Source of the DNA: Enterobacteria phage phi80
Sequence record: NC_021190.1
Reading direction: 5' to 3' (one strand)
Length of the DNA: 46,150 bases
The position numbers are program-made. Shown here one piece after another: positions 27,001 through 33,000 of the stretch; positions within the stretch are counted from its first letter, which is position 1, and every line of letters begins with the position of its first letter.

Positions 27001-30000
27001 CGACCGCATCCAGCCGCTGCGCGTTGAATGCTTCACGAATTAACGTATAGTTTTCGGCATCATTAAGATGCCTGAATGCCTTCATTGCCTCATAGATCAC
27101 CGAATCGGGGACCACCGCCAGCATCTGATACAGGTTAATCAGGTCAGCGCTGACGTCAGCCAGAAGGAAGCGTTCGTGCTTGTCTGAGTTAAGGAACACC
27201 GAGCCGCCACCCACAAAAGGCTCAATAAGGCGTTTACCTGCGGGGATCAAACGATCCAGTTCCGGCAGCAGCGAATATTTGCCGCCAGCCCATTTAAGGA
27301 ACGGGCGCTGCCAGCTGCGCAGCGCCGGTTCTTCTATGGGCATCGCCGCAGCTCCACTGCAAACAGATCCGTATCTCATGCTGCCTCCTGCCTTTCCCGA
27401 TATTCCTCAGCGAGCCGCTGCGCCTTTAATGGATTGCTGACCACTTCACCCCATGGTATTAGCCAGCAGTTACCAATGAAGGGGAGGCACAGTGTGCCTA
27501 CGCTGATGTCGTCGTGAGCGTGAGTCATAGGATGGACTCCATTTCGTCGATATAGAGGCCCTGAGCAATCAGGCGGCGACGGCGTGCTGCACGTTCAATG
27601 CACTCCTGCCGCCTGCCTTCCTGCGACTGCTCTATGGCGCGCCGGGTGAACAGCCGAGATTTACCCTGCGGCGTAATGACCTTTGGCTTCGTAACCAGGT
27701 CGAATGTCCGGTCGCAGATGCCGTCCTCGTTGATCCATTTTTCCGACTCAACGATCTGCGCTATCTGTCCGGTGCCGCGGGTGATGCCGTTGGCGACCCG
27801 GTTAAACTCAATGAGCGATACGCCAAACTTCTCGGCGATTTCGCTGCCAGTGACCGGGCGGCCGCGCGTCTGAATCATCCAGATAACGCGTTCACGGAGG
27901 CCGGAGAATTGCCCGGCTCGCCCGGGCCTGCGGTAGAATGGTGTGCGTTTCATTTCCACTGTTCCCCGAACGTGAAGCCGATCTCTGCCAGCGCCTCGTC
28001 CATCTTCTCGATGAACTCCGGCACCATTTCGTTGAAATCGGACATGTACTGAGGATCCCGCTCAACGACGACGTGGTGAATGCCTTCGCGTTTCATGCGC
28101 GGGTCGTAGTTTGCAAAGAACCATGCGTCTTTTCCGGTCACCCACATGCTGTACTGCACCTGGGCCATGTACGCAGACTTGATGGCTTCGAAACCGCCAA
28201 GGCGGAATTTCATGAAGTCGCGGGAGGTGAAAGGGCATTTAAGCTCAAGGCCGAACCCGTTACTGCACAGGCCGTCAGGGGAGCAGGCGGTGCGCATGCT
28301 CTCGTCACGGAACAAGATCGGAGACTCCGTGACTTTCACGTCAGTGGTGAACTCGAAGAGGGTGCGGGCGTCTTCTTCGTACTGCTTGCCCCAGGCCAGC
28401 GCCTTGGCGTTAACCTCTGGCGCTACACCGGTGCATACCTCGGCGAGCAAGGTGTGGAAGTAGGACATTTTCATGTCTGTCCATTTGCTGCCAGATCGAG
28501 GCTTGGAAATGACGTTGTGAGCGTCAGAGGCAGTAATAACTCCGAGCCTTAATTTGGCCCATGCTTCATCACCTTGCTCTACGGTGGACACATCTATGCC
28601 GGTCCGGGCCAGGATAATTTCTGGTGTCATGCTGCCGCCTTCTTCTTGAGGAAGCCTAAGGCCTTAACTGCCTCGGCTTGGGTAAGCTCGGATGAATCGC
28701 GAATATCACGACGGAAAATTTGCGAACAGACTGGGAGCAGGTTTTCTTCCCATGTCTTATCCATTGCGATAAGGACGTCGTTAATCTCCTTGATAATTTC
28801 GTCTCCTGCTGGGGTTACATCGCGTTCTGGCTGGCGTTCTGCTGAGAAGTTGATACCTTCCTCACCCTCGGTATTAACATGGTCGATGGCGGCATCCAGG
28901 CGCTCACGTCGAGGCCAGTATTTTGCTGCCTGCTTCACGACCGTCTTTAGGATCATCTGCTCTTCATCGGTGACCCATGGACACTTCTTGCTGTTGTCAG
29001 ATTTGTACTTCTTCCATGCTTCAGACCGGTCACGGATGGAGTAGATGGCATCGATGCGCATCGTATGGGTAAGGTAATCACCATCGTCAGTTTTTACCGT
29101 TACATACGCCCCTACAATGTCCCCGCGCTGCTCTTCAGTATCAAAGTCGTTGTAGATGTGGATCGGCGGCTTATCGAGCCCCTCGCGGCGGAACTGGTCG
29201 TTTCTTCGAACAATAGCCGACTGGCACCACTTAATGGCGCCAGACTGCTGCGCGATGTGCATCAGGCCCATGTAACTGATGTCGAGGCAAATAGCCCCTT
29301 TACGCGGAACCAGGTAAGCCAGCTTCTGAGCTGGGTTTAGCGAAATACCGATAGCCGCAACGTTGATGATCGCGTTCTGTGTGCTGGTCTGGTTCTGGAA
29401 TGCAACTTTCGCGAGGTAGTCGTTGTTCTGAAATAGCTGGATGGCGAACTGACTTTCCTTCGCCCACACCATCCGCTCGTCAGTGGCCGCCTTAATGAAA
29501 AGCGGCTCCTGTTGTTTGACGAAATCAACAAGGGTTAAGCTCATAGTCCCTCCTTAAAATGGGCAGATTGGATGAAGGCGATCCCACTCTTCTTCGGCGC
29601 GGTCGTAACAGATGCGTGTGACATAGTCGTTATAGGCTTCCTCTGCCTTTTCACCGACTAGTGCCATTTGCGCTTCTTTTGGGAGAAACAGGCTACTCAT
29701 TTGCAGAGCATATTTCGGGAACATGGCGATCAGTTCTTTCGCCCGGTCGTCGATCCACTTCTCTTTCTCGTCGGTGAGTTGCTGCTCAACCCAGCGCCGT
29801 TCTTCGATGCGGTCGTAAGTGAGGTATGCGTTCATGTTTGCCTCAATATTTGATGTGCGCGTCCTGCACTTTGCCGCCAGCGATCGCCAGCACTGCTTTC
29901 TGTGCGTATTCTTCTGGGATGCCCTGAGCAATCAGATCTGCGTAGACACGACGATTGACGGTGCGGCGGTGCTCTTTGTCTGCGGCTCGGCGCGCTTCTT

Positions 30001-33000
30001 CTTCAGCTTTGCGCTGCTCTTCGACCAAACGGGCGGCTTCTGCCTCTTCCTGGCGGCGGCGCTCGGCGGCAACGGCTTCTTCTTTTTCGCGGCGCGCACG
30101 CTCTTCGGTTTCCTTCTTCTCGCGTTCCGCACGCTGTTCCGCTTCAATGCGCTGGCGTTCAGCCAGCTCTGCACGTGCTTTCTCTTCAGCTTCACGGCGC
30201 GCTGCGGCTTCAATCTCCGCTTTGTGCTTCGCTTCGGCATCTCGGCGGGCTTGTTCTGCTGCTTCGCGCTTAATGCGCTCTTCGTGCTCACGCCGAGCCT
30301 GTTCCGCCAGGCGGCGCTGCTCTTCGCGGTCACGGTCGAAATCCTTGTTCATCAGCAGAGCCATTTCGTGGTCTGCTTCGAACTTGGCCGCCAACTCCTG
30401 ATCGAACTTGATGTTCATTTCCAGCGCTTCGGCGTGCAGCGCGTTCATGGCTTCTTCAGCCTTAATGCGTTCCTGCTCGGCTTCCCATTCGGTGAGTGGG
30501 CGGCGGGTTGCGTCGCGAAGCTCGTCACATGCATCAACGAAACGCTTAATTTCGGCCTCAGCAGGTCGCACAGCCTCTTTCAGGCGCTTCAGGTACTCTC
30601 GGCCCGGCTTTTCAATTGCCGTCTTACTGCGTGATACCTGCGCTGCCAGAGAGGCGACACGGTCACGTCCTTTCTTCGTGGACAGGTCCGGCACTTCGTT
30701 TACTGCCTGGCGGATTTGCTCGAGATAAGCATCAAGGCCGCCCGCTACGTAAAGCACTGGGGCCTGTTCCGGCTTGATTTCGATGACAGTTAAGTCCGTT
30801 ACTTCGCTCATGGTTTCTCCTGAAATTTTGATGTGCAGATCTCGCCCTCTGGTGACAGGCAGCAGTTGAATTGGTTAAGGGTTATTTGCCTATGGATCTG
30901 AAAATGCGTATATGGCTAGTTGATTGCTTCGTTAAGCATTTTCTCTATAGCCAGCTTGCCGTCATTTATCTGAGCAACTTGCTTATCGAAGTTCTCTTGG
31001 TAGTGGGCGAGATTCTTTTCCGATGCAGAGAATAGGCGTTCTTTGATTTTTTGTAACTCATCCCTGCTGAAAACAATGCCCATATTGCGGCACTTTTTGA
31101 CATCATCAATGCTCAGGCCGTTACCATTGAGTTTTTCCAGGGCAATGCGCTTAACACACTGCCTGGCTTCTTCAATAGTCTTGTAGAACTCAACCGTATC
31201 GCTTCCACCACTGCCATCTGAATAGCAATTTACTCGTAAAGCTATATCTCCATTAGTGCTGCCCAAAAGAGATAAGCACTTGATACCTTCAAATTTCTTA
31301 CGCCCATAGTAGTTGTCAATTGAAGACATAAAATCTTCATATCTTTCAATGGACGGCACACCGTAATCACGACGAATGGCAAATTTAACCTGCCCGGTCA
31401 TTACATCTGCGAAATGGTCCAGGTCAGCATCATTGATATGATCTGAGAACGCTTTTACCTGCTTAACCATTTCTCTCCAGAAACTTAATGTATTCTGTAG
31501 GTTGCTAATTTCCGAGTTGATCTTTTCAATTTTCAACTTCGCATCAGCAAGGGCTTTTTCTTGTTTTGCTTTTTCACGAGACAACCATGATTCAACTGGC
31601 TGGTCATGTAGACTCTTCACCACAAAACGCTCGCCACCAGGGATTTCATCACCCTGCTGCGTGACAAACACTTCCTGGACGATCGTTTCCTGATTATTCA
31701 ACGCACCAACGACAACGACCTTACGGCCGTCAGAAAGAAATTTAGTTTCCATGACAAAGTCCTTAATGGGTGAGAGGGTTGCCGTGACCGTCCAGAAGGA
31801 CGTCAATCACGCAGTCACTGAGGCGGATGATTTCTGCGTCGGTGTGCAGGTAGACCCATTTGCGCTCCTGAATGACTGCTGAGACGCGATATGTGCGGCC
31901 TTCATGCAATGCCATCATGCCGGGCGTGACGCACTGGCGAATGAGCGGGGTGGTGCCGTAGTGGTTGATCATGCCTTCACCTCAACCTGTTCCAGGAGGC
32001 CAGCCAGCTTCATATGCCAGCGGTTCATCGTCAGCTTTTCACGCGGGTTAGATACCGACGTCAGCTGCCACTCGTTATCGTTGAGCTTTTTGGCGGTGTA
32101 CTGCTTGCCGTTGTGGGTGACTGTCATCTCACACCACCTTGAATAAGAACCAGCCCATACCGCACACAATCAGGCCCACAATGGTTATTGCGGAAGACAT
32201 GCGTACATGGTCAATGGCTAGTTTTGAAAGTGGCTGGCGATGTTCTTTTTTCGTCAGCGAGTTGATTGCTATGTCGAGCAGAAACGTCCCGACAAACCAT
32301 AATGCGTATATCTTTAAGCCCAACTCCAAATCACTCATAAATCCTCTTGGCCTTATCGCGGCGAACGGAACGGTTAATACAAGACTTCAACGCATTTATT
32401 CAGTGTTTCAATGGTCGGTGGATGGCCGCCGGTTGTCATAACTTGAGCCACTCGTAAATGACTCCAGGTATGAAAAAGCCGCTGGTTAGGCGGCTATTGA
32501 GGTTCGCGCGGCTTGTGGTCGAATCGGTGCCACCCGTCAGTTAATTCAAATGGAGCATAACTTTCCCGGCGCTCAGCGAACCCAAGCTCAACAGACAGAG
32601 CGTGCAGCTCATGCCGACGCTTAATCTGTTCCATCGCAATCCAGTCAGCATCGGCATTGCGCTTTTGAGCTTGCTTCGGCGACAGGTCTAAACTGTTTAT
32701 TTCACTTAGTTTCTGCTGACGCTTGATGTCCTGTTTCATATTGCGAAGCGCATTTATCATTGAGTCGATGCGCTTGATGTCGTCGATCATCCCCTTACCC
32801 TCTGTCGTTACCCGCTGATGCGGGAGAAATGCTTTGGCGATGTGGTAGGTGGGAGACCCATTTCGACCCGATTCGGCCTACTTATCTTCGGCAATAGCTC
32901 CTCGGGCCTCGCCGCTTTACGTGCGACATATTCCCGTCCATGAACCCTTCACCACATCCCATAACATTCCCTGTATTGGTCAGCGCCAACTCCCTGCCAG

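What the first reader, a model, noticed from the sequence alone, without database searches (positions are those of the whole stretch)
29843..30811. 322-aa protein dominated by an E/R/A/K-rich coiled-coil tract
The gene between gam and the AT-rich accessory genes is mostly a charged repeat (RREAEEKARAE and similar), which makes both strands open and explains several spurious overlapping ORFs. Function is unknown; it may be a host-interaction or scaffold-like protein.
Basis: seen in the sequence. Interest (0 to 1): 0.35.

Follow-up and report, generated by a model that had tools for sequence, protein, structure and literature searches.

The report
Recombination-module companion protein with charged helical spacer
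The 322-aa gene of phage phi80 is real and belongs to a very large, uncharacterised phage family that almost always sits beside the phage recombination genes; its charged tract looks like a stiff single-helix spacer between two conserved end domains, not a coiled coil.

Summary
The window is phage phi80 (Lula). The CDS 29843-30811 (minus strand, 322 aa, good Shine-Dalgarno, 7 nt before gamL) is real, and RefSeq calls it 'hypothetical protein'.

The E/R/A/K tract covers only aa 161-283, 38% of the protein. It is not a tandem repeat. It has the signature of an ER/K single alpha-helix:
- 60% charged residues and net charge 0;
- i/i+4 opposite-charge pairs at z = 6.6;
- no hydrophobic heptad seam.

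So 'coiled coil' is not supported for the tract.

The protein has three parts: a conserved N-terminal helical domain (core aa 40-110), a spacer of variable length (about 7-29 nm across the family), and a conserved 40-aa C-terminal domain that weakly resembles UBA domains and RuvA domain III.

The family (PHROG 1376, no Pfam model, at least 4,200 clusters at 50% identity) lies within three genes of a single-strand annealing protein or exonuclease gene in all 11 phage records inspected and in at least 63 of 80 IMG/VR loci, whichever annealing-protein type is present.

Best reading: an accessory adaptor or tether of the recombination module, possibly a distant counterpart of Firmicutes DUF1351. 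The mechanism is inferred, not shown.

The parts
29843..30811 (-). CDS of the 322-aa protein (stop codon 29843-29845), a member of PHROG 1376
   Evidence: ORF list and translation. RefSeq CDS WP_000005775.1 at the same coordinates in DH10B. PHROG 1376 E 1.6e-103 over the full length.
30816..30821 (-). Shine-Dalgarno-like AGGAGA, 5 nt upstream of the ATG
   Evidence: Upstream sequence ...TTTCAGGAGAAACC-ATG.
30437..30811 (-). N-terminal conserved domain, aa 1-125. Its most conserved core is aa 40-110 (nt 30482-30694), with the motif VPDxxTxKGR...S...SK...G...K...D.LRD..R.PLT.WE.
   Evidence: Residues at 90% or more across 104 diverse members: D42, T45, G48, R49, S54, K63, G70, K78, D96, L98, R103, P105, E110. 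AF2 pLDDT is above 90, with helices 14-20, 27-36 and from 46 onward. a/d hydrophobic occupancy is 0.5-0.75.
30332..30436 (-). aa 126-160: less conserved amphipathic helix ending in the semi-conserved EADHEmALLMN..FDR motif, followed by the low-confidence hinge at aa 156-162
   Evidence: Alignment A1. AF2 helix 46-155 and pLDDT below 50 at 156-162. Heptad analysis.
29963..30331 (-). E/R/A/K tract, aa 161-283: putative ER/K single alpha-helix spacer (about 18 nm if helical)
   Evidence: 87% E/R/A/K/Q, 60% charged, 7.5% hydrophobic, net charge 0. i/i+4 opposite-charge pairs 47 against 23 +/- 3.6 in shuffles, z 6.6. AF2 gives a continuous helix 162-295, with pLDDT rising from about 80 to 96. Length varies 20-195 aa in the family. 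All indels among close homologues lie here.
29846..29962 (-). C-terminal conserved domain, aa 284-322: helix-Gly-helix plus a tail ending I-x-Y; UBA-like / RuvA domain III-like
   Evidence: Consensus ..H+..N......L...G..E..AK..V.AIA.G......I.Y, with Y322 at 94%. hhalign against E. coli RuvA picks residues 160-188 with P 8.6e-4. PDB profile hits are UBA domains and RuvA domain III at E 0.014-0.9. Pfam RuvA_C matches 4 of 61 members. Foldseek rank 3 is RuvA domain III, not significant.
29554..29835 (-). gamL (host nuclease inhibitor GamL, 93 aa), immediately downstream and probably translationally coupled
   Evidence: NCBIfam NF033500 E 1.2e-43, matching from residue 33 of the 125-aa ORF. RefSeq coordinates.
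28627..29544 (-). recT (single-strand annealing protein) of the same leftward operon
   Evidence: Pfam RecT E 1.1e-29.
27950..28630 (-). YqaJ / lambda-Exo-type exonuclease
   Evidence: Pfam YqaJ E 1.1e-31.
29819..30634 (+). Spurious antisense ORF (271 aa). Others of the same kind: 29955-30401(+), 30408-30728(+), 29932-30333(-).
   Evidence: Stop-free frames caused by GAA/GAG/CGC/GCN codon usage in the tract. RefSeq annotates none of them.

Best explanation
The gene encodes an accessory protein of the phage recombination (Rec) module. It is an elongated, almost all-helical adaptor built from three parts.

1. A conserved N-terminal helical head (aa ~1-125, extended by an amphipathic helix to ~155). 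It carries an invariant set of K/R/S/T/D residues. I infer that it binds the module's substrate or a partner (DNA or a Rec protein) and possibly mediates self-association.
2. An ER/K-type single alpha-helix (aa 161-283) that acts as a semi-rigid spacer of about 18-20 nm. Its charge pattern is selected, but its sequence and length are not.
3. A small UBA-like / RuvA-domain-III-like C-terminal knob, inferred to dock a second protein.

Shown here: gene reality, architecture, family size, spacer properties and synteny. Inferred: the partners and the tethering mechanism.

The protein is dispensable for the core annealing/exonuclease reaction, so it is expected to modulate recombination or protect its intermediates rather than catalyse it.
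For: Identity and reality of the gene: the window is phi80.

Family:
- PHROG 1376, E 1.6e-103.
- The N-domain alone finds 4,209 clusters at 50% identity with E <= 1e-3, and 1,210 with E <= 1e-10.

Architecture is conserved from Escherichia to Pseudomonas, Vibrio, Yersinia, Iodobacter, Acinetobacter and Aeromonas phages.

Spacer:
- composition, i/i+4 z 6.6 and an 8-residue charge period;
- no heptad seam;
- AF2 continuous helix 162-295, mean pLDDT 89.7 for the model;
- family tract median about 115 aa, range 20-195, net charge median -3;
- indels only in the tract, and identity 0.79 there against 0.92-0.95 in the end domains.

Synteny:
- In all 11 annotated phage records inspected, an SSAP (Erf, RecT or Bet) or a recombination exonuclease lies within three genes, on either side of the gene.
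- In 80 IMG/VR loci of close relatives, the downstream module is swapped among GamL+RecT (3 clusters)+YqaJ, Arf+Rad52-type+SSB, Erf, and DUF3799+RecT, while this gene stays. An SSAP was recognised in at least 63 of 80; the rest are truncated or carry an unknown 170-aa protein plus an exonuclease.

Firmicutes precedent: DUF1351, gp157, DUF2483 and Mu-Gam-like genes occupy the equivalent position, and an analogous function has been proposed for them (PMC8093625).

C-domain resemblance to UBA / RuvA domain III.
Against: - No experiment or characterised homologue links the family to recombination. Synteny in mosaic early-left operons may reflect shared ancestry or regulation rather than function.
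- The Ab31 bet-exo-ssb operon works in recombineering without orf39, the family member directly upstream of it (PMC6438905). So the protein is not needed for the core reaction.
- In HK633 and the Yersinia phage, cIII and kil lie between it and erf.
- The N-domain has no detectable fold relative.
- The C-domain matches are all below significance thresholds, and the model lacks the third helix of UBA / RuvA domain III.
- AF2 on a monomer cannot distinguish a single helix from a coiled coil. pTM is 0.36.
Confidence: 0.45

Rival explanations
1. It is an anti-nuclease or anti-defence protein occupying the 'gam position'. It would protect linear phage DNA or recombination intermediates by inhibiting a host nuclease or immune system other than RecBCD (for example an SMC-like or AAA+ enzyme), not by assisting recombination itself.
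For: - In Pseudomonas phages D3, JBD44 and Ab31 and in Acinetobacter TCUAN1 it sits exactly where lambda has gam, directly upstream of the SSAP.
- The authors of the Ab31 operon study noted that the operon lacks a Gam equivalent, and added Red-gamma improved recombineering in some species (PMC6438905).
- In Firmicutes the same slot is filled alternatively by Mu-Gam-like, gp157, DUF2483 or DUF1351 genes (PMC8093625).
- Early-left operons are rich in host-takeover genes.
- A C-terminal RuvA-domain-III-like knob could block, rather than recruit, a host motor.
Against: - It co-occurs with a dedicated anti-RecBCD gene in most enterobacterial loci: GamL directly downstream in 49 of 80, and Abc2 in HK633. 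It is therefore not simply a Gam substitute.
- No similarity to Gam, GamL, Abc2 or Mu Gam models, and no PADLOC hit.
- It is not acidic like DNA mimics (tract net charge about 0).
Confidence: 0.25
2. It is a DNA-binding, nucleoid- or replisome-associated structural protein (KfrA-like, or like the CAF-1 KER domain) whose charged helix itself contacts DNA. Its position near the Rec genes would then be incidental.
For: - ER/K-type single helices can bind DNA (CAF-1 KER, PMC10335832).
- The conserved N-domain residues are largely K/R/S/T.
Against: - The tract is neutral to slightly negative across the family (median -3, range -12 to +3). The KER domain needs a net positive face, and the myosin 7a single helix does not bind DNA (PMC10335832).
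- No helix-turn-helix or KfrA_N match.
- The synteny is too consistent across module types to be incidental.
Confidence: 0.1
3. It is a TolA-like envelope protein or a virion structural protein (tail fibre or scaffold), as some database records call it.
For: Records name homologues 'TolA protein', 'cell envelope biogenesis protein', 'putative tail-fiber protein' and 'fibrinogen binding protein'.
Against: - No transmembrane segment (maximum 19-aa Kyte-Doolittle hydropathy 0.69).
- No TolA or structural Pfam domain in 104 members.
- It lies in the early-left operon between N/cI and int, not among the late genes.
- The database names stem from low-complexity matches.
Confidence: 0.02

Closest known systems
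DUF1351 (Pfam PF07083) of Firmicutes phages (e.g. Streptococcus phage 7201 ORF10, Lactococcus phiLC3 Orf346)
   Same: - Uncharacterised, about 320-400 aa, and immediately adjacent to Erf, RecT or Sak in every locus inspected (PMC8093625).
- Similar order of predicted elements: short N-terminal elements, two long helices with a conserved Pro at the junction, a later charged helix, then a small C-terminal domain with a helix at about 300-311.
- Weak but colinear N-domain profile match: score 21.4-21.9, P 0.001-0.006, above 150 of 150 column-shuffled controls.
- One BFVD protein, A0A516M6H6, is hit by both models: E 3e-4 with the phi80 model, and E 0.075 with the DUF1351 model, where it is the first hit ranked after the top DUF1351-like matches.
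   Different: - None of 104 full-length members, and none of the 28 N-domain sequences scanned, match PF07083 even at permissive E-values.
- Reversed-sequence controls score 16-18, so part of the hhalign score is helical periodicity.
- DUF1351 has a globular middle region, a much shorter charged helix (about 45 aa), a disordered acidic linker and a different C-terminal domain.
ER/K single alpha-helix (SAH) domains (myosin VI/VIIa/X levers, INCENP, CAF-1 KER)
   Same: - Composition, i/i+4 salt-bridge pattern, absence of a hydrophobic seam, and position between two functional domains.
- Such tracts are often mispredicted as coiled coils; INCENP is an example (PMC4571873). They act as spacers or constant-force springs (PMC4183817, PMC5378345).
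   Different: - Ala-rich (about 21% here and 25% across the family), more like TolA domain II.
- Phage and bacterial context.
- Not net-positive like the DNA-binding KER domain (PMC10335832).
- Monomeric helicity is untested.
RuvA domain III / UBA-like domains (Pfam RuvA_C PF07499, UBA clan)
   Same: - A helix-Gly-helix motif (..aLv.lGy..eeA...V..Ia) at the end of a tether.
- In RuvA this domain docks onto the presensor-1 hairpin of the RuvB motor (PMC9477746).
- Matches converge from hhalign, PDB profile search, Pfam and Foldseek.
   Different: - All matches are sub-threshold (best E 0.0018-0.08).
- The third helix is replaced by a conserved G-x-V-x4-I-x-Y tail.
- No evidence of RuvB binding.
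TolA domain II (source of the common misannotation)
   Same: A long Ala/Glu/Lys/Arg-rich helical tract.
   Different: No N-terminal membrane anchor, no TolA C-terminal domain, and a phage early-operon context.

Membership tests
PHROG 1376 (phage protein family of unknown function) | Full-length match to the family HMM | tested here: met
   E 1.6e-103, residues 1-322 on profile positions 1-362.
Canonical coiled coil | Heptad repeat with hydrophobic a/d positions | tested here: not met
   In the tract, at most 9% hydrophobic and at least 51% charged at a/d in any register, and 0.12 in sliding 28-aa windows. By contrast aa 41-159 reach 0.5-0.75.
ER/K single alpha-helix (SAH) | High E/K/R content, few hydrophobic residues, excess of i/i+4 opposite-charge pairs | tested here: met
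   60% charged and 7.5% hydrophobic. 47 i/i+4 pairs against 23 +/- 3.6 in shuffles, z 6.6, with an 8-residue charge period. 68 of 104 family tracts have z > 3.
ER/K single alpha-helix (SAH) | Stable monomeric helix with non-cooperative melting | not testable with these tools
   AF2 predicts a continuous helix 162-295, but a monomer prediction cannot exclude oligomerisation.
DUF1351 (PF07083) | Match to the Pfam HMM | tested here: not met
   No PF07083 hit for the protein, for 104 family members at E <= 1, or for 28 N-domains at E <= 10.
DUF1351 (PF07083) | Profile-profile or structural similarity | tested here: inconclusive
   hhalign P 0.001-0.04, colinear over 67-115 columns. The score exceeds all 150 column shuffles but only slightly exceeds the reversed controls. 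Shared Foldseek hit A0A516M6H6.
DUF1351 (PF07083) | Gene adjacent to a phage SSAP gene | tested here: met
   for this family. and PMC8093625 for DUF1351.
RuvA_C / UBA-like domain | Significant sequence or fold match to the three-helix domain | tested here: inconclusive
   hhalign P 8.6e-4 against RuvA residues 160-188. PDB profile E 0.014-0.9 for UBA domains and RuvA domain III of several entries. RuvA_C in 4 of 61 members, best E 0.0018. Foldseek E 6.7. Only two helices are predicted.
TolA | N-terminal transmembrane anchor and TolA C-terminal domain | tested here: not met
   Maximum 19-aa hydropathy 0.69. No TolA Pfam or NCBIfam match.
Gam-type RecBCD inhibitors (lambda Gam, GamL, Abc2, Mu Gam) | Match to any of these family models | tested here: not met
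   No hits in Pfam, PHROGs or NCBIfam. The gene co-occurs with GamL in 49 of 80 related loci.
DNA-binding KER-type SAH (CAF-1) | Net positive charge along the helix | tested here: not met
   Tract net charge 0 in phi80; family median -3, range -12 to +3. The criterion is from PMC10335832.

The most novel reading that the evidence does not exclude
The protein is a phage-encoded adaptor that uses a RuvA-domain-III-like knob, held about 20 nm away on a single-helix spacer, to engage the host RuvB branch-migration motor or another AAA+ ring of the presensor-1-insert clade. It would thereby either recruit branch migration to annealing intermediates made by the phage SSAP or compete with RuvA to block it. 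Together with Firmicutes DUF1351, it would define a pan-bacterial class of SSAP-associated tether proteins.
Probability: 0.08. Interest if true: 0.8.

Novelty: new variant of a known kind. Interest (0 to 1): 0.45.

Why it matters
Phage Rec modules (SSAP, exonuclease, anti-RecBCD) are the basis of recombineering, and they drive phage mosaicism. Recent surveys found few unexplained genes in or beside these modules.

This family is very large. It is present in every lab strain that carries the phi80dlacZ remnant (DH5alpha, DH10B, TOP10). It sits directly upstream of the Pseudomonas Ab31 'BAS' recombineering operon. It has no Pfam model and no assigned function.

If it modulates recombination or protects its intermediates, it is an untested component that could improve recombineering in non-model bacteria. 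It would also be a prokaryotic or viral example of an ER/K single-helix ruler.

The work also corrects recurrent misannotations of the family (TolA, tail fibre, integrase, CheA, fibrinogen-binding).

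Tried and rejected
- Tandem-repeat origin of the tract: rejected. 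Tandem Repeats Finder found nothing, and self-lag identity is within the shuffle range.
- Rfam scan of the whole window: nothing. Promoter and terminator scan around the gene: nothing beyond chance.
- Foldseek with the full-length model: only family members in BFVD, and nothing significant in the PDB. Elongated all-helical models are poorly suited to this search.
- Full-length profile against PDB sequences: only low-complexity matches (RipA, Zuotin). N-domain profile: only weak helical-bundle hits (RRF, syntaxin, NOG1).
- PADLOC: no hit.
- An 804-aa RecE protein (P0401) listed in the same 90% cluster looked like a fusion with an exonuclease. BLASTP shows no similarity, so it is a clustering artefact.
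- Enlarging the DUF1351 profile did not raise significance (score 21.9). This used 12 phage sequences plus a third database search that returned only S. thermophilus-type proteins.
- The search for related loci with the 104-sequence alignment failed because no stretch was conserved enough. The 5-sequence alignment returned only close relatives.
- The original phi80 genome paper (PMC3510586) is not held. The 2025 lambdoid Rec-module survey does not mention this gene. Literature searches for its accession numbers and names found nothing.

Full report
**Identity of the window and the gene**

The 46,150-bp window is phage phi80 (Lula). Bases 29500-31000 are 100% identical to the phi80dlacZ prophage remnants of DH10B, DH5alpha, TOP10 and similar lab strains. 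A 6-kb stretch is 99.7% identical to the phi80 immunity-region record X13065.

The finding's ORF is on the minus strand at 29843-30811. It starts with ATG and encodes 322 aa. AGGAGA lies 5 nt upstream of the start. The TGA stop is 7 nt before the ATG of gamL. RefSeq annotates exactly this CDS as 'hypothetical protein' WP_000005775.1. The order in the leftward early operon is: zf-TFIIB-domain protein, this gene, gamL, recT, exonuclease, and onward to int. No promoter or terminator signal above chance separates the gene from its neighbours.

**Checking the observation**

Overall composition is E 18.6, A 18.0, R 13.4 and K 7.5%. The extreme tract is confined to aa 161-283 (nt 29963-30331):
- 87% E/R/A/K/Q;
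- 60% charged;
- 7.5% hydrophobic;
- net charge 0.

That is 38% of the protein, not most of it.

It is not a repeat of a unit. Tandem Repeats Finder finds nothing in the DNA. The best protein self-lag (16 residues) gives 34% identity, against a shuffle mean of 19% and a maximum of 38%. What is periodic is charge. Autocorrelation is +0.39 at lag 8 and -0.39 at lag 4. There are 47 i/i+4 opposite-charge pairs against 23.0 +/- 3.6 in shuffles, z = 6.6.

No heptad register places more than 9% hydrophobic residues at a/d positions, while 51-74% of those positions are charged. In sliding 28-aa windows the best a/d hydrophobic occupancy is 0.12 throughout aa 160-285, against 0.5-0.75 for aa 41-159. 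These are the defining sequence features of an ER/K single alpha-helix. Such tracts are often mispredicted as coiled coils, INCENP being one example (PMC4571873), and they act as spacers or springs (PMC4183817, PMC5378345).

In the tract four of six frames have no stop codon and a fifth has one, because the codons are mostly GAA, GAG, CGC and GCN.

**Architecture**

Five phage homologues were aligned: phi80, HK633 gp41, D3 orf53, a Yersinia phage and Vibrio phiV208. A second alignment used 104 representatives at 50% identity. Both show three conserved modules.

1. An N-terminal domain whose conservation peaks at aa 40-110. D42, T45, G48, R49, S54, K63, G70, K78, D96, L98, R103, P105 and E110 are each present in at least 90% of members. 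A less conserved amphipathic helix follows, reaching to about aa 155.
2. The charged tract. It is present at 40 aa or more in 104 of 110 full-length representatives. Its length ranges from 20 to 195 aa (median about 115), with many insertion points.
3. A C-terminal domain of about 40 aa with the consensus H+..N......L...G..E..AK..V.AIA.G......I.Y. The last residue is aromatic in 98 of 110 representatives, and Y322 is 94% conserved.

Among the 120 closest homologues every indel lies inside the tract. Identity to phi80 is 0.79 in the tract against 0.92-0.95 in the end domains.

AlphaFold2 with the 104-sequence alignment gives mean pLDDT 89.7 and pTM 0.36. It predicts helices at 14-20, 27-36, 46-155, 162-295 and 300-311, with a low-confidence hinge at 156-162. 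The tract is neutral to slightly acidic across the family (median net charge -3). This argues against a DNA-binding single helix of the CAF-1 KER type, which requires a net positive face (PMC10335832). There is no transmembrane segment.

**Family and annotation**

The protein matches PHROG 1376 (unknown function) over its full length. It matches no Pfam, NCBIfam or PADLOC model.

The N-domain alone (aa 1-165) finds 4,209 clusters at 50% identity with E <= 1e-3, and 1,210 with E <= 1e-10. tblastn finds it in 152 phage records from Pseudomonas, Escherichia, Vibrio, Klebsiella, Erwinia, Yersinia, Shewanella and other hosts.

Database names for members are low-complexity artefacts. They include TolA, cell envelope biogenesis protein, tail fibre, integrase, fibrinogen-binding protein, CheA and IgA protease autotransporter.

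**Genomic context**

In all eleven annotated phage records inspected, a single-strand annealing protein (SSAP) or a recombination exonuclease lies within three genes:
- directly upstream of Erf in D3 and JBD44;
- directly upstream of Bet in Acinetobacter TCUAN1 and Pseudomonas Ab31;
- directly downstream of RecT in Iodobacter PLPE and Aeromonas ARM81mr;
- two genes from Erf plus an exonuclease in Vibrio phiV208;
- upstream of cIII-kil-erf in HK633 and the Yersinia phage;
- near an exonuclease in Vibrio 1.034.X.

Eighty IMG/VR loci of close relatives (61-100% identity) keep this gene while the module downstream is exchanged. The variants are:
- GamL plus one of three RecT clusters plus a YqaJ exonuclease;
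- a 65-aa protein plus Arf plus a Rad52-type SSAP plus SSB;
- Erf;
- a DUF3799 nuclease plus RecT;
- an unknown 170-aa protein plus an exonuclease.

A recognised SSAP is the second or third gene downstream in at least 63 of the 80 loci. The remainder are truncated contigs or the 170-aa type. Linkage to the Rec module as a whole, regardless of SSAP family and of gene order, is the main functional clue.

The protein is not required for the core reaction. The Ab31 bet-exo-ssb operon works in recombineering without orf39, the family member directly upstream of it (PMC6438905).

**Relation to known families**

In Firmicutes phages, DUF1351, gp157, DUF2483 and Mu-Gam-like genes occupy the equivalent slot next to erf, sak4 or recT, and an analogous function has been proposed for them (PMC8093625). 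I confirmed DUF1351 directly downstream of Erf or RecT in twelve streptococcal and lactococcal phages.

DUF1351 proteins have similar length (320-400 aa). Their predicted element order is also broadly similar (AF2 of a S. thermophilus-phage DUF1351, pLDDT 76).

Profile-profile comparison of the N-domains is colinear but weak. The score is 21.4-21.9 and P is 0.001-0.006. The score is above all 150 column-shuffled controls (11.3 +/- 1.9), but reversed-sequence controls reach 16-18. One BFVD protein, A0A516M6H6, is hit by both structural models. Membership in PF07083 is not met. A distant relationship remains possible but unproven.

The C-terminal domain gives converging sub-threshold matches to UBA-like domains, especially RuvA domain III:
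- hhalign picks E. coli RuvA residues 160-188 with P 8.6e-4 and score 21.7. Shuffles give 9.6 +/- 1.7 and the reversed sequence gives 8.6. The PDB hit 1bdx_A at residues 161-186 confirms the region.
- Profile hits in the PDB are LATS2 UBA (E 0.014), RuvA domain III of several entries (E 0.08-0.9) and HUWE1 UBA.
- Pfam RuvA_C matches 4 of 61 members, best E 0.0018.
- Foldseek rank 3 is RuvA domain III.

In RuvA this domain docks onto the presensor-1 hairpin of RuvB (PMC9477746). Here the third helix is replaced by the conserved G-x-V-x4-I-x-Y tail, so only a general protein-docking role can be inferred.

**Interpretation**

Shown:
- a real, strongly conserved gene;
- a three-part architecture;
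- a central tract with single-helix rather than coiled-coil sequence features, whose presence is conserved while its length and sequence drift;
- persistent linkage to recombination modules.

Inferred: the protein is an accessory adaptor or tether of the Rec module. The N-terminal head binds DNA or a Rec protein and may self-associate through the amphipathic helix 46-155. The C-terminal knob binds a second partner at a distance of about 18-20 nm set by the spacer. Confidence is about 0.45.

The main rival (about 0.25) is an anti-nuclease or anti-defence role at the 'gam position'. This is weakened by frequent co-occurrence with GamL or Abc2. TolA-like or structural roles are rejected.

**Verdict**

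The finding is genuine but partly mis-described. The gene is ordinary in being a phage early gene of unknown function. It becomes interesting as an uncharacterised, very widespread companion of recombination modules with a testable domain logic.

Noticed in passing
window 26494-27379 (minus strand): The DNA adenine methylase gene is split into two ORFs (26494-26835, 113 aa; 26921-27379, 152 aa). RefSeq marks the same gene as 'frameshifted' in DH10B. The methylase therefore appears to be a pseudogene, or to need frameshifting, in phi80 itself.
   Followed up: partly
window 30916-31752 (minus strand): A 278-aa 'zf-TFIIB domain-containing protein' (PHROG 16901, unknown function; weak PADLOC Unk_03 hit, E 0.0028) lies in an AT-richer stretch directly upstream of the target gene. 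It occupies this position in only 2 of 80 related loci. It looks like a moron insertion and is a possible exclusion or defence gene.
   Followed up: partly
window 31763-31972 (minus strand): A 69-aa ORF is annotated by RefSeq as 'cell division protein FtsZ', which is clearly a misnomer. It is the conserved upstream neighbour of the target gene in about 42 related loci, together with a 52-aa ORF. It may be a Kil-like small protein.
   Followed up: no
window 29554-29931 (minus strand): The mechanical ORF for gamL starts at a TTG (125 aa) and overlaps the end of the target gene by 89 nt. The NCBIfam match begins at residue 33, and RefSeq uses the ATG at 29835 (93 aa).
   Followed up: yes
related loci, e.g. 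L037 (gene 2 downstream of the family member): In 8 of 80 related loci a 170-aa protein (PHROG 21613, no Pfam match) takes the place of the SSAP between GamL and the exonuclease. It is a candidate for an unrecognised annealing or ssDNA-binding protein.
   Followed up: partly
related loci L036 and L089 (SSAP genes downstream of the family member): A Rad52-type SSAP (241 aa) and an Erf-type SSAP (217 aa) carry nearly the same C-terminal tail of about 55 aa (...ILA[ED]F[ST]AYA.SEND...H[QG]...C[KR]DVTGIRL[KR]ELKQAA). Two RecT clusters share the phi80 RecT tail. This is consistent with shuffling of partner-interaction domains among SSAP cores.
   Followed up: no
protein cluster of the target: An unrelated 804-aa RecE protein (P0401) is listed in the same 90%-identity cluster as the target protein. 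BLASTP shows no similarity, so it is a clustering artefact in the collection.
   Followed up: yes
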